DNA from: Patescibacteria group bacterium
Lineage (GTDB): Bacteria > Patescibacteriota > Microgenomatia > UM-FILTER-40-11
Reading direction: 5' to 3'
Assembly: GCA_035530075.1 (NCBI GenBank)
Contig: DATKVM010000005.1
Coordinates: forward strand, 167,006-231,005
Length of the DNA stretch: 64,000 nucleotides
Shown: positions 9,870 through 63,464 of the stretch, one piece after another
Numbering within the stretch: the first letter of the stretch is position 1
Layout of the letters: each line of letters starts with the position of its first letter
The notes under the pieces: generated by a model
The model's input: only the letters and a program-made list of their open reading frames with translations
The model's database searches: none
What the model was told of the DNA's origin: nothing
Program-made: the position numbers and the translations under genes

Positions 9870-9977
9870 CTTAAATTTTTCCCAAGGCCAAATTCTGGCA
9901 CATTTGATATGGTTTCTAGTCTTGGTTAAGGCCTAAACTATTGTGAAGGATAAGGTGAAAAATGCTACTATAATTAT

Positions 9978-29531: not shown

Positions 29532-29534
29532 GCG

Positions 29535-30230: not shown

Positions 30231-30306
30231 TCTCTTCCTCTAATAAATTAACAAAGCAACTTTTGAATTTTAACAAAAATTCAAGCTTAATGCAAACCAA
30301 AAGTAG

Positions 30307-33306: not shown

Positions 33307-33347
33307 AAAAAACCCGTTATGACAAATTCTGAACGTGAAAAACTACT

Positions 33348-35092: not shown

Positions 35093-35128
35093 TGCCTAAT
35101 TCTATCACTTTCAATGAGGAAGGCGCAG

Positions 35129-36373: not shown

Positions 36374-36379
36374 CTGGTT

Positions 36380-44422: not shown

Positions 44423-46370
44423 TCTCCATAATTATCTCACTTTTAAATCGAGGCGGTAAAGATGAAGTCGGGTTTTGGGCCACCGGCGGCGGGGGAGATG
44501 GGGGTGGAGAAGGAATTGGCGGAGGGGTAGGCGGGGGAGTAACGGGTGCGGTTGGTTGGGCTCTCTGTGCCAAAATTTCCTGAGGCTTGGAAGTGACCAG
44601 CTGGTGTTCTTGGGGAGAGGCCATCGCCCGCATGGCCACATGATTGCTGCCGGCGAAAAAGAGACCTTCGCCGACATCGCAAGCCAGAAGAAACTGTTTT
44701 TCTCCCTCGGAAAGATAAAAAACTTGACCAATCTTATCAATTGCCGCCGAATGCTGCTTCATTAAAATCTGAATGGAAGAGTTGGTGACAATCGCTTTGC
44801 CTAAGTCATTTTTTAAAAAGTCTTCTACATCTTGAGTGATGGTGGTTACTCCCAGGTAGTATTTTCGGGCTCTTTTGGCGATTGAATTTAAGAAGTTGGC
44901 CGAATCAGGCGTTTGCATCATAAACCAGGCCTCATCAACGACTAAGATTCTTTTTTTCAATTCCTTGCGTACCTTGGTCCAAATAAAGTCCAGAACAATA
45001 AACATGGCAATGGGGCGCAGAGTGCTTTCTATATCCCGGAGAGAAAAGACAGTAAAGGGATTGCGAATGTCAACGTTAGAATACTGGTCAAAAATCCCGA
45101 CAAATGACCCTTTCACAAATTTCTCAATTCGGTCCGCCAGCAAGCGGGATTGCGAGTCCTCCATGCCGATTAAAACTTTGTAAAGGTCTTCCATTAAAGG
45201 CGGTTCTTTCGTCTGGCTTCCTGGGTCTTGAGTAATTCCTTTCATCTGGTAAGTCATAATTAAAGCGCGGTCCAAAATTGCTTCTTCCGTGGCGTTTAGT
45301 TCGCCCATAATTACTTTGAAAAGAGAATGGAGAGAAAGGATTTTATTGTTAAGTTCGTTTTCTCCCTCTTCCCGGACCTGAGAAAGGTCAAAAGGATTAA
45401 CCTTGGCTTGAGAATTGAAACCAAAGCTAATATATTCGCCGCCGACCGCCTGACAGAGAGTTTCATACTCGTTTTCTGGGTCGATGACAATAATTTCAGC
45501 ATCAAACATTAGCGAGCGCAGAATTTCCAGCTTTACCAAATAGCTTTTGCCCGCTCCCGCTTTAGCAAAAACGACACTATTATAATTCTCCAAAGTGAAC
45601 CGATCGAAAATAATCAGGGAACCATTGTGTTCATTAATCCCGTATAAAATTCCCTCGTTAGCGGTTAACTCCGAAGAAGTAAAAGGAAAAGTTGTGGCCA
45701 GTGAGGTGGTGTCCATATTGCGGGTGATATTTAGGTAATCCAAACAAAGCGGTAGAGTGGTCTTAAAACCTTCTTCCATTTGGAGAGTGGCGTGTTTGGG
45801 AATAATCATCAGAGAGGCTAAAGTAGATTCCACTCCGCGGGAAATTTCGTTTAATTCTTCGATGCCTTCTGCTTGAATAGTCACGTAAAGCCCAAATTGG
45901 AAAAATCGCTCGGCTCCCTTAACTAACTGTTCCTGCATCACTCGGGCGTCTTCTAGTTTGGCTTGAGTGGCGGGGTCGGCCACTCGACCCCTTTCCATAT
46001 CGGTGGCAATTTCTGCCTCCATTTCGGCAATTTTTCTTCTCAAATCATCCAAAACCGTTTTGCTTTCGACGGGATAGACAAAGAGGGCAATATCGAGCGA
46101 ATGATCATAATTGACCAGAGGGGAAAGCCAGTTGGCACTAACATAACGAGGATAACCGGCGACAAAAAGAGTGCGGACGAAATGATTGTTAATTTTTAGA
46201 TGGTCAAAGTCCACTTCAATCGCCGAAGGCGCAATCGTATCTTGAGCCGTTGAGGTAGTTGGGGGCTGACTGGGACCGCTGGTCACGATTGGCGGTTTAA
46301 GATTGGGGATTTTCCCCTTTAGTTGCTTTAATTTATCGAGATTGATATTTTTTAATAAATCAGTTTTCAT
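44388..46370 (-). CDS. VirB4/TraE/PrgJ-family type IV secretion ATPase
   Basis: 660 aa with Walker A (AKAGAGKSY) and Walker B (RILVVDEAWFMM). The domain order matches VirB4/CagE-TrbE, and the C-terminal tail is Pro-rich. Confidence 0.85.
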   Translation of the reverse strand: MKTDLLKNINLDKLKQLKGKIPNLKPPIVTSGPSQPPTTSTAQDTIAPSAIEVDFDHLKINNHFVRTLFVAGYPRYVSANWLSPLVNYDHSLDIALFVYPVESKTVLDDLRRKIAEMEAEIATDMERGRVADPATQAKLEDARVMQEQLVKGAERFFQFGLYVTIQAEGIEELNEISRGVESTLASLMIIPKHATLQMEEGFKTTLPLCLDYLNITRNMDTTSLATTFPFTSSELTANEGILYGINEHNGSLIIFDRFTLENYNSVVFAKAGAGKSYLVKLEILRSLMFDAEIIVIDPENEYETLCQAVGGEYISFGFNSQAKVNPFDLSQVREEGENELNNKILSLHSLFKVIMGELNATEEAILDRALIMTYQMKGITQDPGSQTKEPPLMEDLYKVLIGMEDSQSRLLADRIEKFVKGSFVGIFDQYSNVDIRNPFTVFSLRDIESTLRPIAMFIVLDFIWTKVRKELKKRILVVDEAWFMMQTPDSANFLNSIAKRARKYYLGVTTITQDVEDFLKNDLGKAIVTNSSIQILMKQHSAAIDKIGQVFYLSEGEKQFLLACDVGEGLFFAGSNHVAMRAMASPQEHQLVTSKPQEILAQRAQPTAPVTPPPTPPPIPSPPPSPPPPVAQNPTSSLPPRFKSEIIMENGQPAQPKPNP

Positions 46371-46371
46371 C

Positions 46372-47025
46372 TTAAGCCTTCTTTTGGGCCTCTCTTTCAG
46401 CCGCGATCATTTCCGCATTATAAATGCCATAATAAAGCTTTATTAGCTCTTTGCTGATTAACTGTTTGGCGACTAAGCCCAGCCGGGCAGAGAGCTTAAT
46501 TAAATGGTCTCTTTTGGGGGTCAAAGCGGTCTTGGCTTTGGTAATGATATAGGTTTTAGCGTAGGGAAGCGAGGTAGTTTTCTTAAAAATTGAGGTGAGG
46601 GTTGGTGCTATTCCTAGCTCTAAAGAGGAAAAGGGGATAACGACATAAAATTTTTTGTCCAGAACATTGTTTTTTTTCACCATCTCGGCTACAAATTTAC
46701 GGTAGGAATTAATTAGGCCGGCCAAAAGGGGAGAGCTGCTCTTTTTCGCTTCTTGTTTTTCTAAAAGGTCCAAGTAGGAAGAGATATCTTTCCTTTCCGA
46801 GCGGAGTAAAATTTGAATTGAAAAAGTGAGTGAGTTCAAAAGAGCTCCATAGGCATAAATAATGGCTTCCTGTTCTCGCTCGGAGAGCAAGTCGAAATTT
46901 AGAGAAGAAACCGATAGAACCATCGCACACGAGCCGTCTTTGAGGATAACTAAATCGTCCTGAATATCCTCTATTGGCAGATGTTCTTGAGTGCTGGCAC
47001 GGATGGGAATTTGGGCAGGGTCCAT
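46372..47025 (-). CDS. hypothetical T4SS-locus protein (soluble)
   Basis: 217 aa with no TM. Its stop lies 1 nt before the VirB4 start, indicating operon coupling. Confidence 0.4.
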   Translation of the reverse strand: MDPAQIPIRASTQEHLPIEDIQDDLVILKDGSCAMVLSVSSLNFDLLSEREQEAIIYAYGALLNSLTFSIQILLRSERKDISSYLDLLEKQEAKKSSSPLLAGLINSYRKFVAEMVKKNNVLDKKFYVVIPFSSLELGIAPTLTSIFKKTTSLPYAKTYIITKAKTALTPKRDHLIKLSARLGLVAKQLISKELIKLYYGIYNAEMIAAEREAQKKA

Positions 47026-47102
47026 ATGTTTTTAGAACTTGAGAGAGGGAGAGCAGGAGAGTAGAAGTTTTTATACTCTTCTACTCTTACACTCTTCTAC
47101 TC

Positions 47103-47894
47103 TTACTTGCTGATAACTTCAATTGGCGAGATAATTTCGCCTTTCAATTCCACTTTGATTATATCAAAGCGGTAGCCTTCTCTTTCCGTTTCTATTTCGT
47201 AAAGACCGCTGGGAAGGGGAGTCGCGCTTCTAAATTGGCCCAATTTATTGGTTCTAAAAGCGCGCACCGGATTCCCGGCGACATCGCGAATTTCAAGAAT
47301 GGCTGACTCGATAATTTTTCCCTGCTGGTCATGGGCGAAACCGGAAAGTAGATTGGGCATCGAAGGGGTAGCCGGAATAGCCATATTCGTAAATTTAGCC
47401 GCGACTGCCGGCGCGAGGGGTGGTTTGGGGATACTTGGCGCCTGAAAGATAGTGGCTGGTCGAGGAGGACTGACCAGTGGTGGGGGAGGAGTGGATCTAG
47501 TGATTGCCGGGGAAGGTGGAGCGGTGGGAGCACTGAGCGGCTTAACCAACGGCAGGGGGGAAACGGGAGAAGTAGTTTTTTTGGTGGAAATCAAATCTTC
47601 TCCTTCTCCTCGCTTTTTCCAAGTATATTGAGTGGGGGAGTAAATTCTTTTAAAGAAGGCAATAATCCAGACATCAATTGGCCGCCCCTCAAACGGCACA
47701 AAAGCGGCGGCTGCCCCGACCCCGCCAAAAAGAAGAATTAAAAACCACTTAATGAAACTGGGGGGATTAATGGCGTAAACAATTAGGGCGAGGACTATCC
47801 CGGCGGCCAATTTGCCGAATTGCCTTAAGGTCATATCGCCGACGAGGCGAAATTCATAACTGGTGATTGGTTGGGGTACTGGGTGTTGTTCCAT
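47103..47894 (-). CDS. membrane protein: N-terminal 2-TM hairpin (VirB3/PrgI-like?), Pro-rich linker, C-terminal carboxypeptidase-regulatory-like beta domain
   Basis: 263 aa with two adjacent hydrophobic helices near the N-terminus. A long P/S/T/A-rich linker leads to the C-terminal QGKIIESAILEIRDVAGNPV...GLYEIETEREGY beta-sandwich motif. Confidence 0.4.
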   Translation of the reverse strand: MEQHPVPQPITSYEFRLVGDMTLRQFGKLAAGIVLALIVYAINPPSFIKWFLILLFGGVGAAAAFVPFEGRPIDVWIIAFFKRIYSPTQYTWKKRGEGEDLISTKKTTSPVSPLPLVKPLSAPTAPPSPAITRSTPPPPLVSPPRPATIFQAPSIPKPPLAPAVAAKFTNMAIPATPSMPNLLSGFAHDQQGKIIESAILEIRDVAGNPVRAFRTNKLGQFRSATPLPSGLYEIETEREGYRFDIIKVELKGEIISPIEVISK

Positions 47895-50660: not shown

Positions 50661-52073
50661 TCAGAGTCGTCCAATTGCTTTTTGCCACCAACTTAGTGGA
50701 GTTCTTATGCCAGGAGGCTTCAGGCCACGGGCTGTTTGAATATCAAACATTCTGTTTCCCTCTTCTATTTTCCTTATTGCCCCAATCTGAGGACCGAGAG
50801 TTCGATCAACTCCGCCCGAAATGGTTCCTTGGGCCCAACCGACCGTTTGGCCAATGGCGGTTCCAAAAGTTCCAAACCCAGCGGCCTTAAAGGCTTCGAG
50901 GACTACGTTGGGAATACTTCCGACCGCCATAAGCAAACCCAACCCTAGAATTGCTGTTAAAGCTCCTCCTCCTACTCCTAAGACTGGAGGAGTCCATGTT
51001 GGCCCTTTTCCCACCTCAATAATTACACTGGCTAGGAGCAAGAAAAGCGCCACGGCTGGAAAGACTAAAACATTGGCCAGGAGGTTTAGAAACCAGGCGC
51101 CAAATCCTCCTTTACTGCCCGGGACGGCTCCAAGAAGTATTTGGATTGGACCAATAATGACGGAGACAATAATGGAGATATAAGATTTGAGAAGGTTAAA
51201 AAATAGCTTAAGGACTAAGTAAAGAGCGATAATGAGGAAAATTAAGGTGAAAATAACGCCCCCAATTCCAGCTAGAATCCCCACCAAAATATTAGGGTTT
51301 AATCCTGCAAAAAAGGTCTTCACTACAACTCCCTCCCACACCGCCTTAATGCCGCCCCCCAACACTAAACCATAAGCTTCACCGAAACCGAGACTAACAA
51401 ATTTACGTTGTTCGGCGGCAATCTCGGCCATACTTCCCAAAAGACCACTTTGCCCGATAATTAAAACACCCACATAGATAAGAACATAGATTAAATCAAT
51501 CAGTAAGCCAGCAATGGCATAAGAGAAAGTAACTAAGATTAGGGCAATAACTAGTTTTGGAATGGAGTTTTGAATTGTTACTGCTGTTTTAGGGTCAATT
51601 TTTACCCGAAACATGATGGCCAAACCAGTAAAGAGAAAGATTAAAACAAAGAAAAGATAAGCCAAATTGCGTGAGGCTCGCCAAAGAGGGAGTAGGCTAC
51701 TTAAGCCTCTAAAGCCGATGCCGCCTTGGGCGTAAGCTGGTTTAACCAAGCCAAAGTTCCTTCCGAGATAGGCAAAATATTCGATTGAAGAAGCGGGAGG
51801 ATTAGTATACATTGAAACAATCAAATTGCCAACCGCCGTTAAGGCACCCCCCTCACTTTTGTTAGTATTTTCTGAAGGGGCAATTGATTTAATAACAGAG
51901 ATAGCGAGGTCTTTATAAGTTTCATTAGTGTGGCTTTCTAGGTTTAGATCCGGAAGAGTAAGAGCTTTTTCGTAATCGTCAAGATTAGTGCTTCCTTTGT
52001 AGGCTAGGGTGGACGTAGCATTTATAAATAGAAAAACAAAAGATAATGGAATTATAACCTTGAAGAATTTCAT
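50661..52073 (-). CDS. VirB6/TrbL-like polytopic membrane protein
   Basis: 470 aa. A signal peptide and extracytoplasmic N-domain precede at least 5 TM helices with Gly-rich loops. It sits in the T4SS-like locus. Confidence 0.5.
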   Translation of the reverse strand: MKFFKVIIPLSFVFLFINATSTLAYKGSTNLDDYEKALTLPDLNLESHTNETYKDLAISVIKSIAPSENTNKSEGGALTAVGNLIVSMYTNPPASSIEYFAYLGRNFGLVKPAYAQGGIGFRGLSSLLPLWRASRNLAYLFFVLIFLFTGLAIMFRVKIDPKTAVTIQNSIPKLVIALILVTFSYAIAGLLIDLIYVLIYVGVLIIGQSGLLGSMAEIAAEQRKFVSLGFGEAYGLVLGGGIKAVWEGVVVKTFFAGLNPNILVGILAGIGGVIFTLIFLIIALYLVLKLFFNLLKSYISIIVSVIIGPIQILLGAVPGSKGGFGAWFLNLLANVLVFPAVALFLLLASVIIEVGKGPTWTPPVLGVGGGALTAILGLGLLMAVGSIPNVVLEAFKAAGFGTFGTAIGQTVGWAQGTISGGVDRTLGPQIGAIRKIEEGNRMFDIQTARGLKPPGIRTPLSWWQKAIGRL

Positions 52074-52114: not shown

Positions 52115-54115
52115 TTAGAAACTGCAAGTTGGGCATAAAGGGTCAAAACTTTGAATGTCAATTCCTTGCGGCCTTAAAGCGCAACGTTCCAGACAATATC
52201 GCTTTCTGGCCGCTTCCTGCTGGTAATTCAATGCCGATGAACCGACGCCTACTTGATATCCTTCGACTTTAAACTCCGCTTCTCCGGCTAAGGGTTCATC
52301 CTTATTGCTCGGCTTTATCGCTTCCGGAATAGCGTGATTAAGGTAAGTTGACTGCTCATTAAAAGTTTCCCCGCCGGGCAGTTTCCCTCGGCTTTTATTA
52401 ATTAAAGCCACTTTCGTTTGGGTTACGGTTACCCACTGCCAAATGTTGTCAATTAGTTTCAAAATCGGCTCCAAGACTTTAGTAATGAAGCTGGCGGGAG
52501 TAGAAAAATTGGACTGAAGAGTCGCTAATTGATTAACGGGATTATCCTCGGCCGGGTTTCCCGATTGGCAGGTGATTTCCCACCCCGGCGGCTCAGGCAC
52601 ATTGGCGGCCACTTTAATCGCCATCTTTGGTGGGGGCTCGCAAGCATTAAAAAGCCCGCAAGCAATTTTGGTTGACCCTAGAAGCCGGGTCCACCAGGAG
52701 GGGAGAGTCACTCCTGTTTCCGGAATTTTGCTTGGCTTGCTTGCTGGCCCAAGATCTTCTTTGTCCACCACATAGTGTTTTAGTTTAGTTTTAAGCGGGG
52801 TTGAATCCAGGTTTAGGTTTTGCCGTAAGGCTTGAGGTAAGAGTCGATTAAGACCTAGATAAAGGTTTTGCTCCATTACGGAAAAATTAGGCACCGCCTC
52901 TTTCTGCAGCGTTAAAGAACCTTCTGCCGACTGGCCGCTGCCAGCCGCCAATACCCGTTGTTGTTGGCCAGGGGGCAGAGTTGCCGGAGTGTATTGGGAG
53001 GTTTCGCTGCCTTTATTAAGGCTAAAGTCAGTGCAAATTAAGTTATCTTTCACCGCTAAAATCATTGGCTCGTCTCCCGAGCCACACTCGTTACATTCGC
53101 TGGAGCTGGTAACATAGTAAGCGTGTTGCTTCCCCGGGCAGCGGTTTAATGTTGGGGTGGTAGCAGAGGGGGTAATCCTTTGAGTGTCGCCGCCGCCGCG
53201 GTGACTCTTTAAGAAACTGGCGGTTTTGGCGGAGCCGAAAATGCTCCAGCTCCCGGGGCGATGGGGGTCATAGGAAAAAACGGCAAACATCTTAAAACTT
53301 GAATCTCCTGCCCATTTTGGCCAAACCTTTTCCAGCATTTGGCCAATTTCTTCGTCACGGTAACAGGGGGGAGTACAGGTGCCCGCCACCCCGGTTTCTA
53401 AAGCGTAATAAGGGCTGGGAATACCAATTTCATCATATCGGCAATTATTCATCGGCGGAATTGCCGAGCAGGGACCATTAACAAACTGGTCATATTCATT
53501 AATGGAGGAACCAGCAAAAAGCCCATAGAACCCCGCTTTCCCGCCAGGGTTAGTGAAAAAAGAGCCGTTGATGAATGACGGGTTTAATTTGTCTACCATA
53601 GGAGACAGGAGGATTACTTTTGATCCCAGAATTCCTGCTTCTTGAAACAAATTTTTGAGGAACTGAGAATATTGATAGACCCTGTTTCCCTCCGTCTCCC
53701 CTCCGCCTTCATTTTGGTGGTTTGGTTCGTTCCAGGGCATAAAGTAAACTTTGTTGGGAAAGGGGATACCTTGTAAGGTAGCTGTCCAAGCGCGAGCCTG
53801 ATTTTCGTCGGGAGTTTTTTCGGGATAATGACCGCGAATGACGAGATTAATGTTTTGATATTTGGGGTCGCTGACAATTTTGGCAATCTTGTCGCCATCG
53901 CCAGGACAAGCCATAACTACTACCCAGCCGCCTGGACCGACTAATCCGGCTGCCTGGTCAAATTCTTGCCAGTGGTCGCCAATATTGACTCCGACTTTAT
54001 TTTGGGCTCTTGCCGAACCAGCGGTTAGGAAGAGCAAAGCTGGGAAAATCAGGAGAAAGACCAGTTTTTTCATTGCGCCCTCCGGGTTGCCATCATAGTG
54101 GTCCGGGAATTTCAA
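52115..54115 (-). CDS. secreted putative glycoside hydrolase (GH5-like NEP motif) with Cys-rich C-terminal region
   Basis: 666 aa with a signal peptide. PWNEPNHQ resembles the GH5/clan GH-A acid/base strand. Many Cys lie in the C-terminal half. Confidence 0.4.
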   Translation of the reverse strand: MKFPDHYDGNPEGAMKKLVFLLIFPALLFLTAGSARAQNKVGVNIGDHWQEFDQAAGLVGPGGWVVVMACPGDGDKIAKIVSDPKYQNINLVIRGHYPEKTPDENQARAWTATLQGIPFPNKVYFMPWNEPNHQNEGGGETEGNRVYQYSQFLKNLFQEAGILGSKVILLSPMVDKLNPSFINGSFFTNPGGKAGFYGLFAGSSINEYDQFVNGPCSAIPPMNNCRYDEIGIPSPYYALETGVAGTCTPPCYRDEEIGQMLEKVWPKWAGDSSFKMFAVFSYDPHRPGSWSIFGSAKTASFLKSHRGGGDTQRITPSATTPTLNRCPGKQHAYYVTSSSECNECGSGDEPMILAVKDNLICTDFSLNKGSETSQYTPATLPPGQQQRVLAAGSGQSAEGSLTLQKEAVPNFSVMEQNLYLGLNRLLPQALRQNLNLDSTPLKTKLKHYVVDKEDLGPASKPSKIPETGVTLPSWWTRLLGSTKIACGLFNACEPPPKMAIKVAANVPEPPGWEITCQSGNPAEDNPVNQLATLQSNFSTPASFITKVLEPILKLIDNIWQWVTVTQTKVALINKSRGKLPGGETFNEQSTYLNHAIPEAIKPSNKDEPLAGEAEFKVEGYQVGVGSSALNYQQEAARKRYCLERCALRPQGIDIQSFDPLCPTCSF

Positions 54116-54548
54116 ATTTGGTTACATCTACTCCGGTAATAGTTTGAATCAGTTTTAAGATAAACCAAATTCCCAAGAAAACCACTAGCCCGCCAATCGC
54201 GTAAGTAAGAGTTGAGCGAGCTTTTTGCATCGCTTTGGCGTCTCCGCCTGCCGTTAAAAGTTGAAATGAGCCGACAATGAGCATCACAAACATTGCTAAG
54301 CCAGCAATTGGCGTTAAAATGCGGACAATATTGATAAAAAGGCATTCAAATCCCTGGATGGTCGCCACGTCTTCTGTCCCCGGAATTTGGCCAAGGCAGT
54401 TTTTAGAAATATCCCCCCAAGGTTGGGGAAAAGATTCTTGAGCGAGCACCGGTGGGGATAAGAAGTGAGAAGCAAAAAGCGAGACAGTGCTTATTAGCAC
54501 AAAACAGCCAGACAACAAGCCAACAAGATAACTGCTAATCTTCTTCAC
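54093..54548 (-). CDS. VirB2/TrbC-like pilin paralog 1
   Basis: Signal peptide, then helix, a TAGGDAK loop, a second helix and a short tail. This architecture is shared with 7 paralogs. Confidence 0.6.
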   Translation of the reverse strand: MKKISSYLVGLLSGCFVLISTVSLFASHFLSPPVLAQESFPQPWGDISKNCLGQIPGTEDVATIQGFECLFINIVRILTPIAGLAMFVMLIVGSFQLLTAGGDAKAMQKARSTLTYAIGGLVVFLGIWFILKLIQTITGVDVTKFEIPGPL

Positions 54549-54646
54549 ATTTTTAGTCTAACATAACTATCTTGAGAGTAAAAGAAGTTGTCAAACTCAA
54601 AAGCGCCAACTTTCGCTGGCGCTTCCATTTTTCTTCCTTAACTTGC

Positions 54647-55081
54647 CTATTTGACCGTAAAGGTAGGGATTTGCAAATTAAGAATATTGACGCCGAAAAG
54701 CGCTTGGATTAAAGCGATAATGGCCCAAGCGGCAAAAACAATCGCCAAACCGATTAAAGCATTAGTAATTCTTTTGCGGGCAGTTTCCGTCCCGGCCTTA
54801 TCGCCACCGGAGGTAATCCATTGGATTCCCCCGATAACTAAGACAAAGAAAAAGATAATGGCGGCCGCAATCAAGACCAACCTAATTGCTCCCTGAAGAA
54901 TACTCACCAGGGTAATATTAAGCAGTCCCTCAAACCCCGAACCCTCACCCGGTTCGATTTGAATTTCCGACGGCAGCGGCGCTACGGTCGTTCCCGCTAA
55001 AGCCACGGAAGGGTTAATTAAAAAGACACCAACCGCTAGCGAAATACTCGCTAAAACCTTTCTAACTTTACTCATATTCAC
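54647..55081 (-). CDS. VirB2/TrbC-like pilin paralog 2
   Basis: Shares the architecture, with conserved WITSGGDKAG...ITNALIGLAI. Confidence 0.6.
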   Translation of the reverse strand: MNMSKVRKVLASISLAVGVFLINPSVALAGTTVAPLPSEIQIEPGEGSGFEGLLNITLVSILQGAIRLVLIAAAIIFFFVLVIGGIQWITSGGDKAGTETARKRITNALIGLAIVFAAWAIIALIQALFGVNILNLQIPTFTVK

Positions 55082-55094
55082 CCCCTTTCGGTAA

Positions 55095-55475
55095 CTAAAA
55101 AGACGGTAGTTTTAATCGAGTGAGTTTAATGTCAAAGAAAAACTCGATTGCTCCTATTATAGCAAAGATTGAAAGGAGAATGGCAAGGCCGATTAAAGCG
55201 TTGGTAATAGTTTTTTGGGCCGATTCCATTCCCGCCTTGTCGCCTCCGGCGGTAATCCATTTAATCGCGCCGATTAAGAAAATAAAAACAAAAACAACCG
55301 CTCCGCTAATTAGAAAGAGGTTGATAGCCAAAGTCAGTCCTTTTTGAAGGAAAGCCAGGCCGGAAAGTTGGCTGATTGGAGTAGGCAATATCGGATTGTG
55401 AATGTCCGGCATCGGCGTGACTGCCGCCAGAAGCTTTTGGCCAAGAAGAGTAGTGTTCAAAACTAAAGATATCAT
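55095..55475 (-). CDS. VirB2/TrbC-like pilin paralog 3
   Basis: Conserved WITAGGDKAG...ITNALIGLAI and a two-helix hairpin. Confidence 0.6.
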   Translation of the reverse strand: MISLVLNTTLLGQKLLAAVTPMPDIHNPILPTPISQLSGLAFLQKGLTLAINLFLISGAVVFVFIFLIGAIKWITAGGDKAGMESAQKTITNALIGLAILLSIFAIIGAIEFFFDIKLTRLKLPSF

Positions 55476-55882
55476 TTAGGGGCTAAATCTTTAATAAATT
55501 TGGCCACCGAGAGAATATTGGGAATGCCGATTAAACTGCCGATAAGGTCAATAAGGAAGGTAGCCGATAAGACCAAAATTAAGCCAATTATGCCGGTCGT
55601 AATTTGTTTTTGGGCATTTTGCAGTTTGGTTTTGTCGCCGCCGGAAGCCAGCCAGCCGATGGCGCCAGTGAATAGAACAAAGGTAAACCAAATAACGGCA
55701 ATAATCGTCATTACCCCGATAATGTTCGAAAGAATATTGACAAAAGTGCTAATCGCCGTAATTTCGTTAGTTAGAGGCCAGCTCTCCCCTCCCAAGATGC
55801 CAATTCCCTCCAGGGGCCCTAACTGAACTCCGGAAGGGGTCGGCCCGGCGGCTAAAACTGATTTAGTCAAATTAAGGTCCAT
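55472..55882 (-). CDS. VirB2/TrbC-like pilin paralog 4
   Basis: Conserved WLASGGDKTK...ITTGIIGLIL. Its start overlaps the neighbouring gene. Confidence 0.6.
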   Translation of the reverse strand: MDLNLTKSVLAAGPTPSGVQLGPLEGIGILGGESWPLTNEITAISTFVNILSNIIGVMTIIAVIWFTFVLFTGAIGWLASGGDKTKLQNAQKQITTGIIGLILVLSATFLIDLIGSLIGIPNILSVAKFIKDLAPK

Positions 55883-56399
55883 AAATTGTTGGCACTAAAA
55901 TCGCCCTGGCATCGCCAAAGATTAACCAGCCAAAAATGGCGGCCAGGACGAAGGAGCCGGCGACAAAAAGAAGTCCGAGCAAAGATTGCCAAATTCTTGC
56001 CCAGGCTTGCTCAACTTTTTTGGCGTCGCCCCCGGCTCCCATAAAACTGTAGCCGGCAATAATAATATTAAAAAAGGCAAAGAGCCCAGCCGCACCAATG
56101 AGTAATTTAAGCAAAACGTTCATAAATTTAACTAGGCCAGTTTGGAAATCACCATATTCGGAAACCCCCTGGGGAGCAGCGATAGAACCAAAAAAGCTTG
56201 CTGGGGCGGGCGTTCGACATTGGGGACAGTTTTCAGGTAAAGAACATCGCGTGTCATTACAGGGGATACCTCCTATATTGGCGGGTTTACCGCACAAATA
56301 GGGACAAGTGTCTGCCAAAACCGTTGACGCTGAGCAAAAAAGAAAGAAGACTAAAAAAATTAAGATGGGCGTTATTGCCTTCGCAAATTTATTTTTCAT
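55872..56399 (-). CDS. VirB2/TrbC-like pilin paralog 5 with Cys-rich N-terminal module
   Basis: A signal peptide and an 8-Cys segment (CPYLCGK...CNDTRCSLPENCPQC) precede a C-terminal GAGGDAKK two-helix pilin module. Confidence 0.55.
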   Translation of the reverse strand: MKNKFAKAITPILIFLVFFLFCSASTVLADTCPYLCGKPANIGGIPCNDTRCSLPENCPQCRTPAPASFFGSIAAPQGVSEYGDFQTGLVKFMNVLLKLLIGAAGLFAFFNIIIAGYSFMGAGGDAKKVEQAWARIWQSLLGLLFVAGSFVLAAIFGWLIFGDARAILVPTIYGP

Positions 56400-56740
56400 T
56401 ACAGTTTAGGGTTTAGGATGTCAATTCCCGTGATAAATCCAATAATTTGGATAATCCAGTAACTGGCAAAAATAATTAAAAAGCCGATTACTGCGGCTGT
56501 GGCCGCTTTTTGTCCTTGGCCCGCTTTTTTTGGATCACCTCCGCCTGCTCCCAGAATAATTGATATGCCACCGAAAAGCAATAAAACCAGCAAGAATAAA
56601 CCGGCCACCATATAGACGTTGCGGAGAATAATGGAAATTAAAGCTCCGGGAGACTGAAACTGGGGAGCATCTTTAATTGCTTCGCCAGGCTTAAGAAACC
56701 ATTCTTTGCCAATGTTAACTTCCGCCAAAAGATTTTTCAT
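56399..56740 (-). CDS. VirB2/TrbC-like pilin paralog 6 (shortest, possibly the major subunit)
   Basis: 113 aa with GAGGGDPKKAG between two hydrophobic helices. It is the first gene of the tandem array. Confidence 0.6.
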   Translation of the reverse strand: MKNLLAEVNIGKEWFLKPGEAIKDAPQFQSPGALISIILRNVYMVAGLFLLVLLLFGGISIILGAGGGDPKKAGQGQKAATAAVIGFLIIFASYWIIQIIGFITGIDILNPKL

Positions 56741-57879: not shown

Positions 57880-57884
57880 AAGAG

Positions 57885-58682: not shown

Positions 58683-58703
58683 TAACTAGATACCAACGAA
58701 CAT

Positions 58704-59745: not shown

Positions 59746-60113
59746 AAATGAAAATAGAAAAAATACATATAAAAATTAAAAAAGTTATGAGATTTGGGGT
59801 TTTGGTGGGAATAAAAGAGAGTTACTTACTGGTAAAGAATGCCTATGGGTTATATAGCCATCCGTTCTTGACGACTAAAAGAATTATGGAGGAAAAAGAT
59901 TTATCCCAAGGCCTTTTGCTTTTCGGCTTACCAATTTATCTTTGGTTGGCTTGGGTTTTGATTTTATTAGTCTCCCGAATCTTCATTTTTAAAGAGCTTC
60001 GTTTTGGCTTTCTAGCCAAAACCTCATTTTTACTTTCCTCTTTCTCGCTCTCCATCCTTTCTCTCTTTTTGGGCTATTGGCTATTTATGGTTTGTCGAAA
60101 GAAGGCGAAGTGA
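59742..60113 (+). CDS. putative membrane anti-sigma factor (co-transcribed with ECF sigma)
   Basis: 123 aa with a 4-nt overlap with the sigma gene and 2 to 3 hydrophobic helices. There is no conserved motif, so the call rests on position only. Confidence 0.3.
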   Translation: MKMKIEKIHIKIKKVMRFGVLVGIKESYLLVKNAYGLYSHPFLTTKRIMEEKDLSQGLLLFGLPIYLWLAWVLILLVSRIFIFKELRFGFLAKTSFLLSSFSLSILSLFLGYWLFMVCRKKAK

Positions 60114-60415
60114 GTTCAGAAAGAGGACATGGACTATCTTGGGGGTGGCGCGAAATGCGGCAGTTTGGAGTTAGTAAGGGGGTTTGTGGCGAGGAGCAGC
60201 GGGTGGTTTTCCAGAACCCGGGAGAGAGGATTCTTGGTCTTTTGCGCGGGAAATTATATATGTGGCATCAACCGATATTCGATGAGGAGGGAAAGCTGAT
60301 TGGCCATCATCTCGGGTGGTCTCTATTATCAGAAGAATACGATCAGCAGTTTCGAGAAGCCAGAAGAGACAAACTTGTTCCCCGTGAGGCTTAGTGTTAG
60401 AATTCGTTCACACAA

Positions 60416-61120
60416 ATGGTTAAATTAGACAAAAAAAATATCCCCCAACACGTTGCCATTATTATGGACGGCAACCGGCGGTGGGCAAAAGCGCGGGGGC
60501 TCTCTGTTAATGAAGGCCATGAGGAGGGAGCTAAAAACTTGGACCGGGTTGTTAGACGAGCAGAGGAGCTAGGGATTAGGTATCTAACCTTTTATACCCT
60601 CTCAACTGAAAATTGGCGCAAACGGACCAAACAAGAGGTCAAAGGAATTTTTGATTTGCTCTTAAGGATGGTTAAGGAGAAAAAAGAGCAGTATGAAAAA
60701 GAAGGGGTCAAGCTTTTTGTTTTGGGTAACTTCCAAGCTTTTCCCCGCAAAGTTGCCCGAGCAATTGCCGAAATGCTCAAAATTGTCCTCAAGCACGAAA
60801 GAATTAAAGTCAATCTCGCCTTAAATTATGGTGGTCGGGACGAGATTATTAAAGCGATTCAAGAAATTATTAAAGAGGGAGTTCCTCCCGAAAAAGTCAA
60901 TGAGGAGCTGGTAGCCAAACACCTCTATACTAATGGCCAACCGGATCCAGACTTAATTATCCGCACTGGGGGTGAAGTTCGGCTCTCTAACTTCCTTCTT
61001 TGGCAAATGTCCTACTCCGAGCTTTATTTTACTGATATTTTATGGCCGGACTTTGGACCTCGCGAGCTTGAGCGAGCGATATTTGAATATCAAAGAAGGC
61101 AAAGGCGATTTGGGAAGTAG
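60416..61120 (+). CDS. uppS: undecaprenyl diphosphate synthase (cis-prenyltransferase)
   Basis: HVAIIMDGNRRWA, RTGGEVRLSNFLLWQ and the canonical UppS length (234 aa). Confidence 0.95.
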   Translation: MVKLDKKNIPQHVAIIMDGNRRWAKARGLSVNEGHEEGAKNLDRVVRRAEELGIRYLTFYTLSTENWRKRTKQEVKGIFDLLLRMVKEKKEQYEKEGVKLFVLGNFQAFPRKVARAIAEMLKIVLKHERIKVNLALNYGGRDEIIKAIQEIIKEGVPPEKVNEELVAKHLYTNGQPDPDLIIRTGGEVRLSNFLLWQMSYSELYFTDILWPDFGPRELERAIFEYQRRQRRFGK

Positions 61121-61233: not shown

Positions 61234-61566
61234 TTAATTCTTTTGCTTCTGCCAAAGACTGCGTGCTTTGATTTTTAGTTCTGGAACTGCCATTGCAATT
61301 ATTCTTAGCCAATACTTTGTCTCCTTGGCCTCTTTTTTGCACAGGCTAATTTTATGTTTGAAGTCCATTTTCGATTCGGCGTTATCAGCCTCACAATAGT
61401 TGGCTCCTATGCTAGTGGCCGCTCGGACTAATTGGCTAATAAGGGAGATGGTTATTGGGGATTGAGGAACTTTCTTAGAAAATTCAATTATTGCTTCACC
61501 AAAGTTCGCTGTTCTTTCTTCTAAGTCATAATTTTTGTTTTGACCAATTGGGTTTTGATTGGTCAT
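61234..61566 (-). CDS. four-helix-bundle protein (23S rRNA IVS-encoded protein family)
   Basis: 110 aa. Core SIGANYCEA ... KHKISLCKKEAKETKYWL is typical of the four-helix-bundle family. Confidence 0.7.
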   Translation of the reverse strand: MTNQNPIGQNKNYDLEERTANFGEAIIEFSKKVPQSPITISLISQLVRAATSIGANYCEADNAESKMDFKHKISLCKKEAKETKYWLRIIAMAVPELKIKARSLWQKQKN

Positions 61567-61590: not shown

Positions 61591-62277
61591 CTAAAATATC
61601 TGTATTCCTAAGATAACTTCCAGTATTTGGACTAACCAGTAGGAAATAAAAAGCAATAAAAATCCTGCTAAGGCACTGGTGATTTTTCCTTTAGCCGAGG
61701 CTAATCCTTTTTCATCGTTAGCAGCAATCATCATTTGAAAGCCGCCGGCAATTAAATAGAACAAAAGGAGTAAGCCGGCAATAACAAAAAGATAAGGCAA
61801 AAGGCCAAAAATGATTGCTCCTACATCAGAAGAGAGGCCCGGCAGGAATTGCTCTTTGAGTCCGGTTTCTTTCCCAAATTGTTTACCAAGCTGACCAAAA
61901 TCAATTCCCGAGTTACCACTTTCTTCTGAGAAAGTAGCCGTGCTTTTAGTAGGAACAGGTGTGGAAGTGGAAATAGAAGTTGGCGATGTTCCCCCTCGGC
62001 AATAACCGTTCATGCAGGTCTGGCCACTAACACAAGAGGGGTTTGGGTTGGGACAACAAGGATAGGGATATTGGCCACAAAGCGATCCTTGTTTACAGTA
62101 TCCATTCTGGCAATACCATTCAGGAAAACCGCAACAGGGGAGACTCACATCACAAGAGTTAGTGTTTTCGTAACAACTTACGGCTTTAACATGAGGAACG
62201 TGGAGAACGAATGGGAATGTTAAAATAAAGGAGGCTATAGTCACAAGCGGTAAGGATTTAGATTTTATTTTGATCAT
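61591..62277 (-). CDS. VirB2/TrbC-like pilin paralog 7 fused to Cys-rich N-terminal domain
   Basis: A signal peptide and about 70 aa with 16 Cys (CYENTNSCDVSLPCCGFPEWYCQNGYCKQG...) precede a Ser/Thr linker. The C-terminal two-helix module has AANDEKG. Confidence 0.55.
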   Translation of the reverse strand: MIKIKSKSLPLVTIASFILTFPFVLHVPHVKAVSCYENTNSCDVSLPCCGFPEWYCQNGYCKQGSLCGQYPYPCCPNPNPSCVSGQTCMNGYCRGGTSPTSISTSTPVPTKSTATFSEESGNSGIDFGQLGKQFGKETGLKEQFLPGLSSDVGAIIFGLLPYLFVIAGLLLLFYLIAGGFQMMIAANDEKGLASAKGKITSALAGFLLLFISYWLVQILEVILGIQIF

Positions 62278-62279
62278 TA

Positions 62280-63464
62280 CTATTTTCTAAACCCAGGAAT
62301 TTGTAAAATATCCACTCCGATTAATTTTAGCAGAAATAGGGAGAGAATAATCAGCAAAAGTCCGCTAATAGCGCTGGTAATCAGCTCGCCTCCGGCTTTG
62401 ACTTTCTCAGGGTTGCCGCCGGAGACAGTGATTTGAATGGCGCCTAAGGCCATTAAAAGGAAAGCAATCCCCGAAGCGATAAAAGTAACTTTTCCTAAAA
62501 GCCAACCGACAAATCTGTCAACACTGTCGACCGGGATACACCCAATAGCTGTTGTTACTCCCGTTCCCCCATCACAGGTGACGTCTATTATGGGAATATT
62601 TTGTATATACAGGCCTGTTCCCAGCGTGCAGTTAATTTTGTCTACAGTTATCTTTGATTGAAAGAACCCATAATTCTTGCAGCATGTTTTTGTCAGATCA
62701 GTACCCAAAGGACAATCAAAGAAACTACTCGTAAAACCTTCAGGGCAACAATATGGACCTGTAATAGTACTTCCGCAAGGAATTTTAGAGATGGTTTCTT
62801 TTAGTTGAAAAAGTCCATAATTTTTGCAGCAAAATCTAGAGGTATCTGTGCCCGTAGGACAGTCCAAACTGCGATCGCTATAGCCATCAGGACAACAAAA
62901 GGACGGCTGCCGTGAGGCCTCGCTTCCACAAGGAACTCTATCAGCGGTTTCTTTATAGCCAAAAGACCCGCTATTTCTGCAGCATTTTTTGGTTATATCT
63001 GTGCCTGAGGGACAATCCCAACAATTTTCAGAAAAACCGGCGGGACAGCAAAGGGGTTCGTTATCAATTGTGCCACAAGGAATTCTGTCTTTAGTTTCTT
63101 TCTCGCAAAAAAATCCATGATTCTTACAGCATTGTTTTGATAAGTCTGTAAAGGACGGGCAATCCATGGCATTTTCGGTAAAACTTGGAGGGCAACAAAG
63201 TAGTTCGGTTGTCTGCCCTCTAATAGATGAAGGTAGCCTTAAAGACAAAAGCAAGAAAAACAAACAGAGCAACGATAGTCTTTTGATCATGAAAGCCGTC
63301 TCCTTCTTAAAATCATAACATAACTGTTTGCAAATGGTAAAATTAAAAGTAATGCTCAAACTTAAGCTTCGTTGGTTGAAATTCACGGTTTTAATCTTTA
63401 CTTTCCTTTTTTTGGGTTTTTCCAGCTTCGGAACAATTAGTGTTCGGGCTGAGTGCCCGGCCAC
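62280..63464 (-). CDS. VirB2/TrbC-like pilin paralog 8 fused to four Cys-rich repeats
   Basis: Four roughly 45-aa repeats (CCPxGF(T/S)xxxxDCPxGTDx(T/S)KxCCKNxGxFxxKETxDxIPCG) precede a C-terminal VSGGNPEKVKAG two-helix pilin module. 1-nt spacing to paralog 7. Confidence 0.55.
   Translation of the reverse strand: MAGHSARTLIVPKLEKPKKRKVKIKTVNFNQRSLSLSITFNFTICKQLCYDFKKETAFMIKRLSLLCLFFLLLSLRLPSSIRGQTTELLCCPPSFTENAMDCPSFTDLSKQCCKNHGFFCEKETKDRIPCGTIDNEPLCCPAGFSENCWDCPSGTDITKKCCRNSGSFGYKETADRVPCGSEASRQPSFCCPDGYSDRSLDCPTGTDTSRFCCKNYGLFQLKETISKIPCGSTITGPYCCPEGFTSSFFDCPLGTDLTKTCCKNYGFFQSKITVDKINCTLGTGLYIQNIPIIDVTCDGGTGVTTAIGCIPVDSVDRFVGWLLGKVTFIASGIAFLLMALGAIQITVSGGNPEKVKAGGELITSAISGLLLIILSLFLLKLIGVDILQIPGFRK

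What the first reader, a model, noticed from the sequence alone, without database searches (positions are those of the whole stretch)
61591..63464. Pilin-module fusions carrying Cys-rich N-terminal repeat domains (candidate tip adhesins)
Two adjacent genes, and also paralog 5 at 55872..56399, place a Cys-dense extracellular domain N-terminal to the conserved two-helix pilin module. The 394-aa protein has four tandem roughly 45-aa repeats with a fixed 8-Cys pattern (CCPxGF...DCPxGTD..KxCCKN.G.F..KET.D.IPCG). The 228-aa protein has a different 16-Cys knot-like segment followed by an S/T-rich linker. Fusing a variable disulfide-rich head to a pilin anchor fits a minor-pilin or tip-adhesin role. 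Such fusions could also be diversified binding modules presented on a T4SS-like pilus. The repeat family does not look like a commonly described domain.
Basis: partly seen in the sequence, partly recalled or inferred. Interest (0 to 1): 0.75.

Follow-up and report, generated by a model that had tools for sequence, protein, structure and literature searches.

The report
Secretion-system pilins carrying swappable disulfide-rich heads
Two neighbouring genes of an ultra-small (Patescibacteria) bacterium join a conserved secretion-system pilin anchor to fast-changing, disulfide-rich outer domains, one built from a previously undescribed 47-residue repeat, which makes them candidates for the parts that recognise the host cell.

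Summary
The first gene is most likely 336 aa (ATG at 63290), not 394. Its four repeats have 6 Cys each, not 8. The 228-aa protein has 12 Cys, not 16.

Both proteins have the same build: signal peptide, Cys-rich head, then a two-helix PF18895 (VirB2-like) pilin module. They are genes 1 and 2 of the type IV secretion pilin array typical of Microgenomatia. Here an isoprenoid gene block separates them from the other six pilins.

The "CCPxGY…DCPxGTD…CC…C" repeat matches no Pfam, NCBIfam or PDB entry. An exhaustive search of 1.84 billion proteins found 20 carriers. Of these, 18 are pilin fusions with 1–4 copies.

In 80 related genomes the same anchor is 45–71% identical. Its heads run from 0 to about 380 aa, and 54 heads fall into 44 unrelated groups. 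Against a close relative, the DNA aligns in the flanks and anchors but not in the heads. Mature proteins carry an even Cys count in 64 of 69 cases, which fits disulfide bonding.

Best reading: surface-displayed, exchangeable binding heads. Binding and pilus incorporation are inferred, not shown. This is a new variant of the known Patescibacteria pilin arrays.

The parts
62280..63290 (-). Gene 1: head-bearing pilin, 336 aa (stop codon 62280-62282).
   Evidence: SD AAGGAG 8 nt before ATG 63290. Identical to P0001, 336 aa. Called as 336 aa on 13 contigs.
63312..63341 (-). Promoter-like site (TTTACC, 18 nt, TATGAT preceded by TG) upstream of gene 1
   Evidence: Consensus scan only. It lies inside the longer 394-aa ORF, which argues against that start.
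63213..63290 (-). Signal peptide of gene 1 (aa 1-26, MIKRLSLLCLFFLLLSLRLPSSIRG)
   Evidence: Read directly from the sequence (n-region, hydrophobic core, small residues at -3/-1). AF2 helix 3-17, then a low-pLDDT segment 19-27.
63057..63203 (-). Cys repeat 1 (aa 30-78)
   Evidence: Repeat HMM envelope; alignments A1 and A3.
62910..63056 (-). Cys repeat 2 (aa 79-127)
62757..62903 (-). Cys repeat 3 (aa 130-178)
62613..62756 (-). Cys repeat 4 (aa 179-226)
62523..62582 (-). Neck: Cys-bridged hairpin ..VTC..TAIGCIP.. (aa 237-256), conserved in the family just before helix 1
   Evidence: C239 and G250 are invariant and C251 is present in most members of A4. AF2 strands 244-247 and 250-253.
62283..62522 (-). 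Two-helix pilin module of gene 1 (aa 257-336; helices 257-289 and 294-328; loop SGGNPEK)
   Evidence: PF18895 at 20.2 bits (GA 26.6) for this protein, but 18 of 19 family members hit it, best E 7e-12. AF2. hhalign against the p228 family gives 97.5%.
61591..62277 (-). Gene 2: head-bearing pilin, 228 aa, starting 2 nt after the stop of gene 1
   Evidence: Called as 228 aa on independent contigs. NCBI's 185-aa call (P0004) drops the signal peptide.
61990..62181 (-). Head of gene 2 (aa 33-96): two 6-Cys mini-modules, C-x6-C-x5-CC-x6-C-x4-C and C-x6-CC-x6-C-x5-C-x4-C
   Evidence: Orthologs carry 2-4 such modules, with 12, 18 or 24 Cys.
61906..61989 (-). S/T/P-rich linker of gene 2 (aa 97-124)
   Evidence: Read directly from the sequence.
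61594..61905 (-). Conserved pre-helix segment plus two-helix pilin module of gene 2 (aa 125-228)
   Evidence: 75-81% identical to orthologs. The DNA alignment with L006 begins exactly at 61906. PF18895 at 20.1 bits and NF045849 at 24.4 bits, both sub-threshold.
55872..56399 (-). Third head-bearing pilin (175 aa): signal peptide, short 6-Cys head, pilin module
   Evidence: Orthologs in L003 and L006 keep a near-identical module and a diverged 6-Cys head.
54093..56740 (-). Main array of six PF18895 pilin paralogs (113, 175, 136, 126, 144 and 151 aa)
   Evidence: The order is conserved across genomes.
44388..47894 (-). T4SS core genes: VirB4-like ATPase (44388-46370), TrsD-like (46372-47025), PrgI/VirB3-like (47103-47894)
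   Evidence: Pfam TraG P-loop, AAA_10 and PrgI. NCBIfam TrsD, sub-threshold.
50661..52073 (-). Polytopic 470-aa membrane protein, a candidate VirB6-like channel subunit
   Evidence: Inferred from position and hydrophobicity only. No Pfam or NCBIfam hit.
61234..61566 (-). 23S_rRNA_IVP four-helix-bundle gene, third gene of the apparent operon. Whether it belongs to the system is uncertain.
   Evidence: PF05635, E 1.6e-15. It recurs next to such pilins in L001, L004, L005 and L035, but in only 2 of the 80 genome loci.

Best explanation
These are genes 1 and 2 of the VirB2-like (PF18895) pilin array of a Microgenomatia-type Patescibacteria type IV secretion system.

Build of each protein: a Sec signal peptide, an extracytoplasmic disulfide-bonded head, a neck or S/T/P linker, and a two-helix pilin module.

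Proposed mechanism:
1. The protein is exported by Sec and the signal peptide is cut off.
2. The module sits in the membrane with both ends outside and the short polar loop inside.
3. The head folds oxidatively outside the cell.
4. The T4SS (VirB4-like ATPase, PrgI, TrsD, VirB6-like protein) takes up the module into its pilus or surface structure. In solved VirB2-type pili the termini lie on the outer face (established knowledge), so the N-terminal head would be exposed there.
5. The head binds a ligand on the host cell. Heads are exchanged or remodelled between lineages (domain swaps, changes in repeat number, loss), which retargets a conserved machine.

Shown here: the domain anatomy, the T4SS context, the conserved array position, head hypervariability on a conserved anchor, and even Cys counts.
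Inferred: pilus incorporation, position in the structure (tip or shaft), and any binding function.
For: Anatomy:
- Signal peptides, Cys heads and PF18895 modules.
- AF2 model with pLDDT 81.5: four small beta-hairpin domains at pLDDT 85-90, plus a helical hairpin at 257-289 and 294-328.
- The two modules are homologous (hhalign 97.5%, E 5e-12).

Context:
- VirB4-like, TrsD-like and PrgI genes and a six-pilin array lie beside dnaA/dnaN. This matches the published Patescibacteria T4SS, whose pilin array is essential in S. epibionticum (PMC12102498, PMC10633639, PMC12857230).

Position in the array:
- In 70 of 80 species-level genomes the p336-type gene is directly followed by a p228-type gene, then by the other paralogs in fixed order.

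Hypervariable heads:
- Relatives with uppS 84-94% identical keep the modules at 70-81%, but their heads are unrelated, and one p228-type protein has no head.
- The DNA aligns in the flanks and modules but not in the heads.
- Across the 80 genomes heads span 0 to about 380 aa and 0-23 Cys. The 54 heads of at least 40 aa form 44 BLAST-unrelated groups.

Modularity:
- The Cys repeat occurs in 1-4 copies.
- P0100 combines p228-type knot modules with the Cys repeat on one anchor.
- The p228 knot modules vary from 2 to 4 copies.

Disulfides:
- 64 of 69 mature proteins have an even Cys count (p = 4e-14).
- The window proteins have 28, 12 and 6 mature Cys.

No PrgB-type adhesin was detected in Patescibacteria T4SS loci by the published survey, which leaves that role open.
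Against: - No head matches a known binding domain. Ten large heads had no Pfam hit, and the Cys repeat had no fold match.
- No Patescibacteria T4SS pilus has been visualised in the papers I could read.
- Structural similarity of the module to solved conjugative pilins is not significant. The best hit is 8dfu at E 2.6, TM 0.58.
- p336 and p228 themselves score below the PF18895 gathering threshold.
- A head of about 22 kDa on every subunit might be hard to fit into a helical shaft, so any incorporation could be limited to a tip or to low stoichiometry.
- About one third of p336-type pilins and three quarters of p228-type pilins carry no head, so the head is dispensable for the basic machine.
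- No disulfide oxidoreductase was seen in the ORFs I screened in the window.
Confidence: 0.55

Rival explanations
1. Membrane-anchored surface proteins rather than pilus subunits. The two-helix module serves only as a membrane anchor or as a fixed part of the T4SS channel. The heads act at the bacterium's own surface, for example in envelope organisation, receptor function or docking of other secreted proteins.
For: - No pilus is demonstrated.
- The module is simply two hydrophobic helices.
- Each paralog is strongly conserved and holds a fixed array position, which suits fixed stoichiometric parts.
- The Cys repeat also occurs in two large secreted proteins with weak dockerin-like ends.
Against: - The family is homologous to PF18895 pilins.
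- Reviews regard the Patescibacteria arrays as potential pilus subunits.
- Extreme head turnover is more typical of parts that meet a foreign surface than of housekeeping envelope parts.
Confidence: 0.25
2. The heads are cargo rather than adhesins. They would be small disulfide-rich toxins, inhibitors or effectors (knottin-like) carried on, or released from, the pilin anchor and delivered to the host cell by the T4SS.
For: - The first p228 module has the C-C-CC-C-C framework typical of inhibitor cystine knots.
- A positional ortholog head gives a weak hit to Toxin_21, a spider knottin (E 0.004, sub-threshold).
- A variable domain on a conserved delivery part resembles polymorphic toxin logic.
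- Most Patescibacteria T4SS loci lack a relaxase, and protein export has been suggested for them.
Against: - There is no significant match to any toxin family.
- No cleavage motif and no conserved adjacent immunity-like gene is seen. The IVP gene is present in only 2 of 80 loci.
- Many heads are 200-380-aa beta-rich domains, unlike small toxins.
- The variable part is N-terminal and stays tethered to a membrane anchor.
Confidence: 0.1
3. The heads are long pro-regions. Like the unusually long leader peptides of TraA and TrbC prepilins, the N-terminal segment is removed during maturation and has no role in the finished structure.
For: VirB2-family prepilins are known to have long leaders of 36-51 aa that are cleaved (established knowledge). 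The heads are dispensable in many orthologs.
Against: - Each head has its own canonical signal peptide.
- The heads fold into confident domains (pLDDT 85-90).
- They keep conserved Cys frameworks and even Cys counts.
- The same repeat is used in non-pilin secreted proteins.
A disposable leader would not need any of these properties.
Confidence: 0.05
4. The heads are targets of a diversity-generating retroelement or of phase variation. This idea was prompted by the adjacent bAvd-related 23S_rRNA_IVP gene.
For: A PF05635 gene lies directly downstream. The same family, with a weak bAvd hit, flanks the Cys-repeat pilin in L001.
Against: - There is no template/variable repeat pair anywhere in the 64-kb window. 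The only direct repeats are two pilin paralogs and a 53-nt pair elsewhere.
- No reverse transcriptase appeared among the ORFs I scanned.
- P0001 is identical on 13 contigs from at least 6 samples, and its 90% cluster holds one sequence.
- The variable part is N-terminal, whereas DGR targets vary at the C-terminus.
Confidence: 0.02

Closest known systems
VirB2-like pilin arrays of the Patescibacteria T4SS (PF18895; Quinonero-Coronel et al. 2025, PMC12102498; Wang et al. 2023, PMC10633639)
   Same: - Same Pfam family.
- Same neighbours (VirB4, TrsD, PrgI/VirB3, VirB6-like).
- Same location next to dnaA.
- Arrays of 2-11 sequence-divergent pilins, abundant in Microgenomatia, with no PrgB-type adhesin found.
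   Different: Those papers, as far as I could read them, treat the pilins as small divergent paralogs. They do not describe N-terminal head domains, conserved paralog order, or head swapping. Here genes 1, 2 and 4 of the array carry disulfide-rich heads.
Bartonella Trw T4SS (amplified trwL/VirB2 and trwJ/VirB5 variants) and Anaplasma VirB2 paralogs
   Same: Multiple variant pilus-surface components are thought to widen or set host-cell binding. This is cited as the analogy in PMC12102498.
   Different: In those systems variation comes from sequence divergence of whole small paralogs in diderm pathogens. Here a conserved anchor carries unrelated fused domains in a monoderm episymbiont lineage.
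Type IV pilus and T2SS minor pilins with extra domains (for example CofB, TcpB, GspK)
   Same: Same design principle: a pilin-type anchor plus an added globular domain, encoded in a fixed-order minor-pilin operon and placed at the tip to start assembly or to bind.
   Different: These are not homologous. The type IV pilin fold has an N-terminal helix and a C-terminal head, and assembly is by PilB/PilC. CofB appeared only as an insignificant Foldseek hit (E 6.8).
VirB2-type conjugative pili with solved structures (F/pED208 TraA, T-pilus VirB2, archaeal CedA1 of Aeropyrum pernix, PDB 8dfu)
   Same: A helix-loop-helix subunit preceded by a leader. 8dfu is the best relevant structural match to the module (TM 0.58 on the target, 71 columns, 22% identity).
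   Different: The match is not significant (E 2.6). There is no PF04956 hit. None of these pilins carries a folded N-terminal domain.
Small disulfide-rich modules (inhibitor cystine knots, granulin, EGF-like, hevein-type)
   Same: Size of 30-50 aa, six Cys, beta-hairpin-rich, tandem arrays. The first p228 module has the C-C-CC-C-C spacing of cystine knots.
   Different: There is no sequence or fold match to any of them. The CC..C..CC..C framework with CCPxGY and DCPxGTD motifs is distinct. Disulfide connectivity is unknown.
Mycoplasma ICE 'Mbov_0395 family pilin-like conjugal transfer protein' (NF045849)
   Same: Weak profile similarity to the p228 and p175 modules (24 bits). It is also a monoderm T4SS with a small two-helix protein.
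   Different: The score is below the 40-bit cut-off, and that family has no heads.

Membership tests
PF18895 T4SS_pilin (Patescibacteria VirB2-like pilin) | Match to the Pfam HMM at or above the gathering score (26.6 bits) | tested here: inconclusive
   p336 scores 19.9-20.2 bits and p228 20.1 bits, both below threshold. However, 18 of 19 Cys-repeat pilins hit at E <= 0.001 (best 7e-12). Three paralogs in the window pass the threshold (33.5, 32.9, 29.8 bits). Most p228 homologs carry a precomputed PF18895 hit.
PF18895 T4SS_pilin (Patescibacteria VirB2-like pilin) | Profile-level homology to accepted members | tested here: met
   hhalign of the p336-type module profile (A5) against the p228 family (A2) gives probability 97.5%, E 5.2e-12, over 74 columns.
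PF18895 T4SS_pilin (Patescibacteria VirB2-like pilin) | Signal or leader peptide followed by two hydrophobic helices joined by a short polar loop | tested here: met
   AF2 helices 257-289 and 294-328 with loop SGGNPEK. The signal peptides are read from the sequence.
PF18895 T4SS_pilin (Patescibacteria VirB2-like pilin) | Encoded in a pilin array beside VirB4, PrgI and VirB6-like genes | tested here: met
   Genes 1 and 2 are contiguous with the array in many genomes, and split from it by uppS here.
PF18895 T4SS_pilin (Patescibacteria VirB2-like pilin) | Polymerises into an extracellular pilus | not testable with these tools
   Needs microscopy or biochemistry. It is not established for any member in the papers I read.
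TrbC/VirB2 conjugative pilins (PF04956) | Sequence match to the family profile | tested here: not met
   No PF04956 hit at E <= 0.1 for any of the eight pilins.
TrbC/VirB2 conjugative pilins (PF04956) | Fold match to solved conjugative pilins | tested here: inconclusive
   Foldseek gives 8dfu (A. pernix conjugation pilus) at E 2.6, probability 0.77, TM 0.58 on the target. The profile search of PDB sequences found nothing relevant.
Known small disulfide-rich domains (EGF-like, anaphylatoxin, granulin, knottin/ICK, hevein) | Sequence-profile match | tested here: not met
   Pfam at E <= 10 gave only noise: Antimicrobial_6 at E 3.1 and RUBY_RBDX at 0.88. PDB phmmer gave none or noise. NCBIfam gave none.
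Known small disulfide-rich domains (EGF-like, anaphylatoxin, granulin, knottin/ICK, hevein) | Fold match of a single repeat | tested here: not met
Known small disulfide-rich domains (EGF-like, anaphylatoxin, granulin, knottin/ICK, hevein) | Characteristic disulfide connectivity (for example 1-4, 2-5, 3-6 for cystine knots) | not testable with these tools
Only the spacing C-x6-C-x5-CC-x6-C-x4-C in the first p228 module fits the ICK pattern.
T4SS adhesins VirB5/CagL and Gram-positive PrgB | Homology to the adhesin families | tested here: not met
   No such Pfam hits in the heads. The published survey also found no PrgB in Patescibacteria.
DGR variable proteins | Template/variable repeat pair and a nearby reverse transcriptase | tested here: not met
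   No such repeat in the window. No RT among the scanned ORFs. The protein is invariant across 13 contigs.

The most novel reading that the evidence does not exclude
The eight-gene pilin array of Microgenomatia builds a hetero-oligomeric pilus or tip complex. Its first subunit (p336-type), and sometimes the second and fourth, carries an exchangeable receptor-binding head that sets which host cell the episymbiont can attach to.

Heads would behave as cassettes that move by recombination among pilin anchors and other secreted proteins. Three observations point that way:
- the Cys repeat and the knot modules occur together on one anchor;
- the Cys repeat occurs on two different anchor types (p336-type in most carriers, p228-like in P0107 and P0108);
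- the Cys repeat also occurs in dockerin-like secreted proteins.

This would be a bacterial counterpart of phage receptor-binding-protein exchange, built on a T4SS.
Probability: 0.3. Interest if true: 0.8.

Novelty: new variant of a known kind. Interest (0 to 1): 0.66.

Why it matters
How ultra-small Patescibacteria recognise and attach to their host cells is largely unknown. Their T4SS and its pilin array are essential in the one genetically tractable species, yet the function of that system is open.

This finding gives a concrete and testable candidate for the specificity determinant. One array position holds a conserved anchor, and its outer domain differs in almost every species. That lets host range be approached in three ways:
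- comparative genomics, relating head type to habitat or host;
- expressing isolated heads and testing binding;
- swapping heads in tractable relatives.

It also adds a new, very rare disulfide-rich repeat domain and several other uncharacterised extracellular domains to the catalogue. Finally, it corrects two gene models: the 394-aa ORF should be 336 aa, and NCBI's 185-aa call should be 228 aa.

Tried and rejected
I replaced it with the module alignment A5.
- A DGR or phase-variation explanation, prompted by the neighbouring IVP/bAvd-like gene, was rejected. There is no template/variable repeat and no RT, and the protein is invariant across samples.
- Metal-cluster or free-thiol Cys was considered and rejected, on the signal peptides and the even-Cys bias of 64 to 5.
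- Recent tandem duplication or an assembly artefact was rejected. There is no DNA tandem repeat, and the units are only 56-67% identical at DNA level.
- The search for a nearby disulfide oxidoreductase found nothing. Twenty large ORFs in 1-29100 were scanned with Pfam, and a [WFY]CxxC motif scan hit only LeuRS zinc motifs. ORFs in 29500-36400 and the small ORFs were not scanned with Pfam.
- Pfam on ten large heads from other genomes gave nothing.
- The idea that the gene after the Cys-repeat pilin in L001 and L002 is a p228 ortholog was tested and rejected. Those neighbours match the window's 136-, 144- and 151-aa paralogs instead.
- The 2026 preprint on Pam pili in CPR bacteria describes a different system (Ig-like, donor-strand exchange) and is not relevant.
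Full report
**What is in the sequence**

The region holds two minus-strand genes separated by 2 nt. The stop TAG is at 62280-62282 and the next ATG at 62277.

The upstream ORF can be read as 394 aa from GTG 63464. Four lines of evidence favour ATG 63290, giving 336 aa:
- an AAGGAG lies 8 nt upstream of that ATG;
- a promoter-like TTTACC-18-TATGAT with a preceding TG lies at 63341-63312, inside the longer ORF;
- the 336-aa product starts with a signal peptide;
- it is identical to database protein P0001, which is called as 336 aa on 13 contigs from at least six metagenomes.

After the signal peptide come four tandem units of about 49 aa, at aa 30-78, 79-127, 130-178 and 179-226. Their consensus is xLCCPxGYxxxxxxCPxGTDxxxxCCKRxGFxxYxxxxKIxC.

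Each unit has six Cys, not eight. Repeats 1 and 2 carry one extra Cys each. The mature protein has 28 Cys.

The units are 45-55% identical as protein and 56-67% as DNA. Tandem Repeats Finder sees nothing. The array is therefore old and not an artefact.

A short Cys-bridged neck (..VTC..TAIGCIP..) leads into two long helices.

The 228-aa protein has a signal peptide ending HVKA, then 12 Cys (not 16). These form two six-Cys mini-modules, C-x6-C-x5-CC-x6-C-x4-C and C-x6-CC-x6-C-x5-C-x4-C. An S/T/P linker and a two-helix module follow.

The 175-aa paralog at 55872-56399 has a short six-Cys head.

**The anchor and its context**

All eight small proteins hit PF18895 T4SS_pilin. Three pass the gathering score. 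p336 and p228 are sub-threshold at about 20 bits against 26.6.

Family-level evidence settles the homology:
- 18 of 19 Cys-repeat pilins hit PF18895, best E 7e-12;
- most p228 homologs carry the domain;
- the two module families align by hhalign at 97.5% probability.

AlphaFold2 on a 19-sequence alignment gives pLDDT 81.5. It predicts four small beta-hairpin domains at pLDDT 85-90 and a helical hairpin at 257-289 and 294-328.

The best relevant structural match of the hairpin is the Aeropyrum pernix conjugation pilus subunit, 8dfu. It is not significant (E 2.6, TM 0.58).

The window also encodes a VirB4-like ATPase, a TrsD-like protein, a PrgI/VirB3-like protein and a polytopic candidate VirB6. 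A six-pilin array lies next to dnaA and dnaN.

This is the Patescibacteria T4SS described by Quinonero-Coronel et al. 2025, with pilin arrays of 2-11 genes that are frequent in Microgenomatia. Tn-seq showed the system to be essential in S. epibionticum. Those texts do not mention head domains on the pilins.

**The Cys repeat is a new and very rare domain**

- Pfam at E <= 10, NCBIfam and PDB sequence searches give nothing.
- A word-indexed search of 5.8 billion proteins found only the protein itself and two relatives.
- An exhaustive HMM search of 1.84 billion cluster representatives found 20 proteins.

Eighteen of those 20 are N-terminal fusions to a pilin module, with one, two or four copies of the repeat. 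Most carry the p336-type module, and two (P0107, P0108) carry a p228-like one.

The other two are large secreted Cys-rich proteins of 1326 and 617 aa. They carry three copies and one clear copy, and have weak dockerin-like C-termini.

One protein, P0100, carries p228-type knot modules and two Cys repeats on the same anchor.

**Heads are swapped on conserved anchors**

Three related contigs (L003, L004, L006) share the window's synteny: SpoIID-like gene, pilin 1, pilin 2, optional IVP gene, uppS, isoprenoid genes, then the rest of the array.

| Feature compared with the window | Result |
|---|---|
| uppS identity | 84-94% |
| Pilin module identity | 70-81% |
| Pilin-1 heads | A different 16-Cys domain, another 16-Cys domain, and a beta-rich domain of about 270 aa |
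| Pilin-2 heads | Different Cys domains, or no head at all (111 aa) |

At DNA level against L004, the flanks align at 76% and 86% and the pilin-1 module at 71%. The two head-coding stretches do not align at all.

A scan of GTDB species representatives with the module profile found 115 relatives. The best 80 are all Microgenomatia-type MAGs: Shapiro-, Woese-, Gottesman-, Blackburn- and Beckwithbacteria. Among these 80:
- the head is 0 to about 380 aa long, with 0-23 Cys;
- 54 heads of at least 40 aa fall into 44 BLAST-unrelated groups;
- none contains the Cys repeat;
- ten large heads have no Pfam match.

In 70 of the 80 genomes the p336-type gene is followed directly by a p228-type gene. Where the contig continues, the remaining paralogs follow in the same order. 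In about 45 genomes uppS follows gene 2, as in the window.

In the p228 family, 72 of 95 hits have no head. The rest carry 2-4 knot modules, beta-rich domains or a CarboxypepD_reg domain.

The short head of the 175-aa paralog also diverges while its module is nearly invariant.

**Disulfides**

Mature proteins with any Cys have an even count in 64 of 69 p336-type proteins (binomial p = 4e-14). The figures are 17 of 20 in the Cys-repeat family and 17 of 20 in head-bearing p228 relatives.

Together with the signal peptides, this indicates fully disulfide-bonded extracellular domains rather than metal sites.

No thioredoxin-type oxidoreductase was found in the ORFs I screened. This search covered only part of the window and says nothing about the rest of the genome.

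**Interpretation**

Shown here:
- secreted, disulfide-rich, modular heads on a conserved VirB2-like anchor;
- a fixed position at the start of a T4SS pilin array;
- extreme turnover between species by replacement, change in copy number and loss.

Inferred:
- The anchor adopts the both-ends-out topology of VirB2-type pilins and is taken up by the T4SS.
- The head is then exposed on the outside. In solved VirB2-type pili the termini lie on the outer surface (established knowledge).
- The head binds a host-surface ligand.

I put this reading at about 0.55.

Rival readings:
- A membrane-only anchor without a pilus: about 0.25.
- Knottin-like cargo or toxin heads: about 0.1. This rests only on Cys spacing and one sub-threshold Toxin_21 hit.
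- Cleaved pro-regions: about 0.05.
- A DGR target: rejected. There is no template repeat and no RT, and the protein is invariant across samples.

**Novelty and score**

The pilin arrays are known. The following are not described in the literature I could search:
- head-bearing members of the arrays;
- the conserved array position of those members;
- cassette-like head exchange;
- the 47-aa CC..C..CC..C repeat.

I rate the finding as a new variant of a known kind, with interest 0.66. It offers a concrete candidate for host-recognition determinants in an essential but functionally unexplained machine. No binding or localisation evidence exists yet.

Noticed in passing
window 52115-54115 (-): A 666-aa secreted, Cys-containing protein lies directly downstream of the pilin array and upstream of the VirB6-like gene. 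It has no Pfam or NCBIfam hit. A counterpart of about 650 aa occupies the same position in L003.
   Followed up: partly
window 41969-44422 (-): An 817-aa ORF lies next to the VirB4-like gene and has no Pfam or NCBIfam match. It has coiled-coil-like N-terminal content, membrane segments and a Cys-rich C-terminal part. It may be the cell-wall-hydrolase (VirB1-like) slot of the system.
   Followed up: no
window 61234-61566 (-); also L001 3865-4236 and 5652-6008, L004 8781-9170, L035: A 23S_rRNA_IVP (PF05635, bAvd-related four-helix bundle) gene sits immediately after the pilin pair. The same family recurs beside head-bearing pilins in a few other loci, but in only 2 of the 80 genome loci. No DGR components were found, and its role is unknown.
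   Followed up: partly
window 61591-62277 (-): The NCBI record calls this gene as 185 aa (P0004). That call removes the signal peptide and the first three Cys. Independent gene calls and full-length homologs support 228 aa.
   Followed up: yes
window 56815-61120 (+): A block of isoprenoid and cell-wall lipid-carrier genes lies between pilin genes 1-2 and the other six. It holds polyprenyl synthase, isopentenyl phosphate kinase-like, NUDIX/IDI-like, an ECF sigma factor and uppS. In many other Microgenomatia the eight pilins are contiguous. In about 45 of the 80 genomes uppS follows gene 2, as here.
   Followed up: partly
window 47103-47894 (-) and protein P0037: The CarboxypepD_reg-like domain (PF13620) appears at the C-terminus of the PrgI/VirB3-like protein. 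It also appears as the N-terminal head of a p228-type pilin in another metagenome. Extracellular modules therefore seem to be shared between different T4SS parts.
   Followed up: no
L008-L087 (record titles): Many GTDB species-representative MAGs that carry this Microgenomatia-type pilin locus are titled 'uncultured Gammaproteobacteria bacterium' or 'Pseudomonadales' (TPA assemblies). These are probably mislabelled record titles.
   Followed up: no
window 9035-9087 and 9852-9904 (+): A 53-nt direct repeat, 72% identical, begins GGCGGCAAAAATTAGGGG in both copies. One copy lies just past the low-coordinate end of the minus-strand ORF 8235-9011 and the other just after the plus-strand ORF 9381-9845. 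It may be a shared regulatory or terminator element.
   Followed up: no
window 54740-54858 and 55179-55297 (-): Two adjacent pilin paralogs (144 aa and 126 aa) share a 119-nt stretch at 73% DNA identity. This is the only trace of recent paralogy within the array.
   Followed up: no
proteins P0101 (1326 aa) and P0112 (617 aa): These are large secreted proteins made of many different small Cys-rich modules, including the Cys repeat. They have weak dockerin-like C-termini (E about 0.01) and no pilin module. This hints at a wider Patescibacteria repertoire of shuffled disulfide-rich surface modules.
   Followed up: partly
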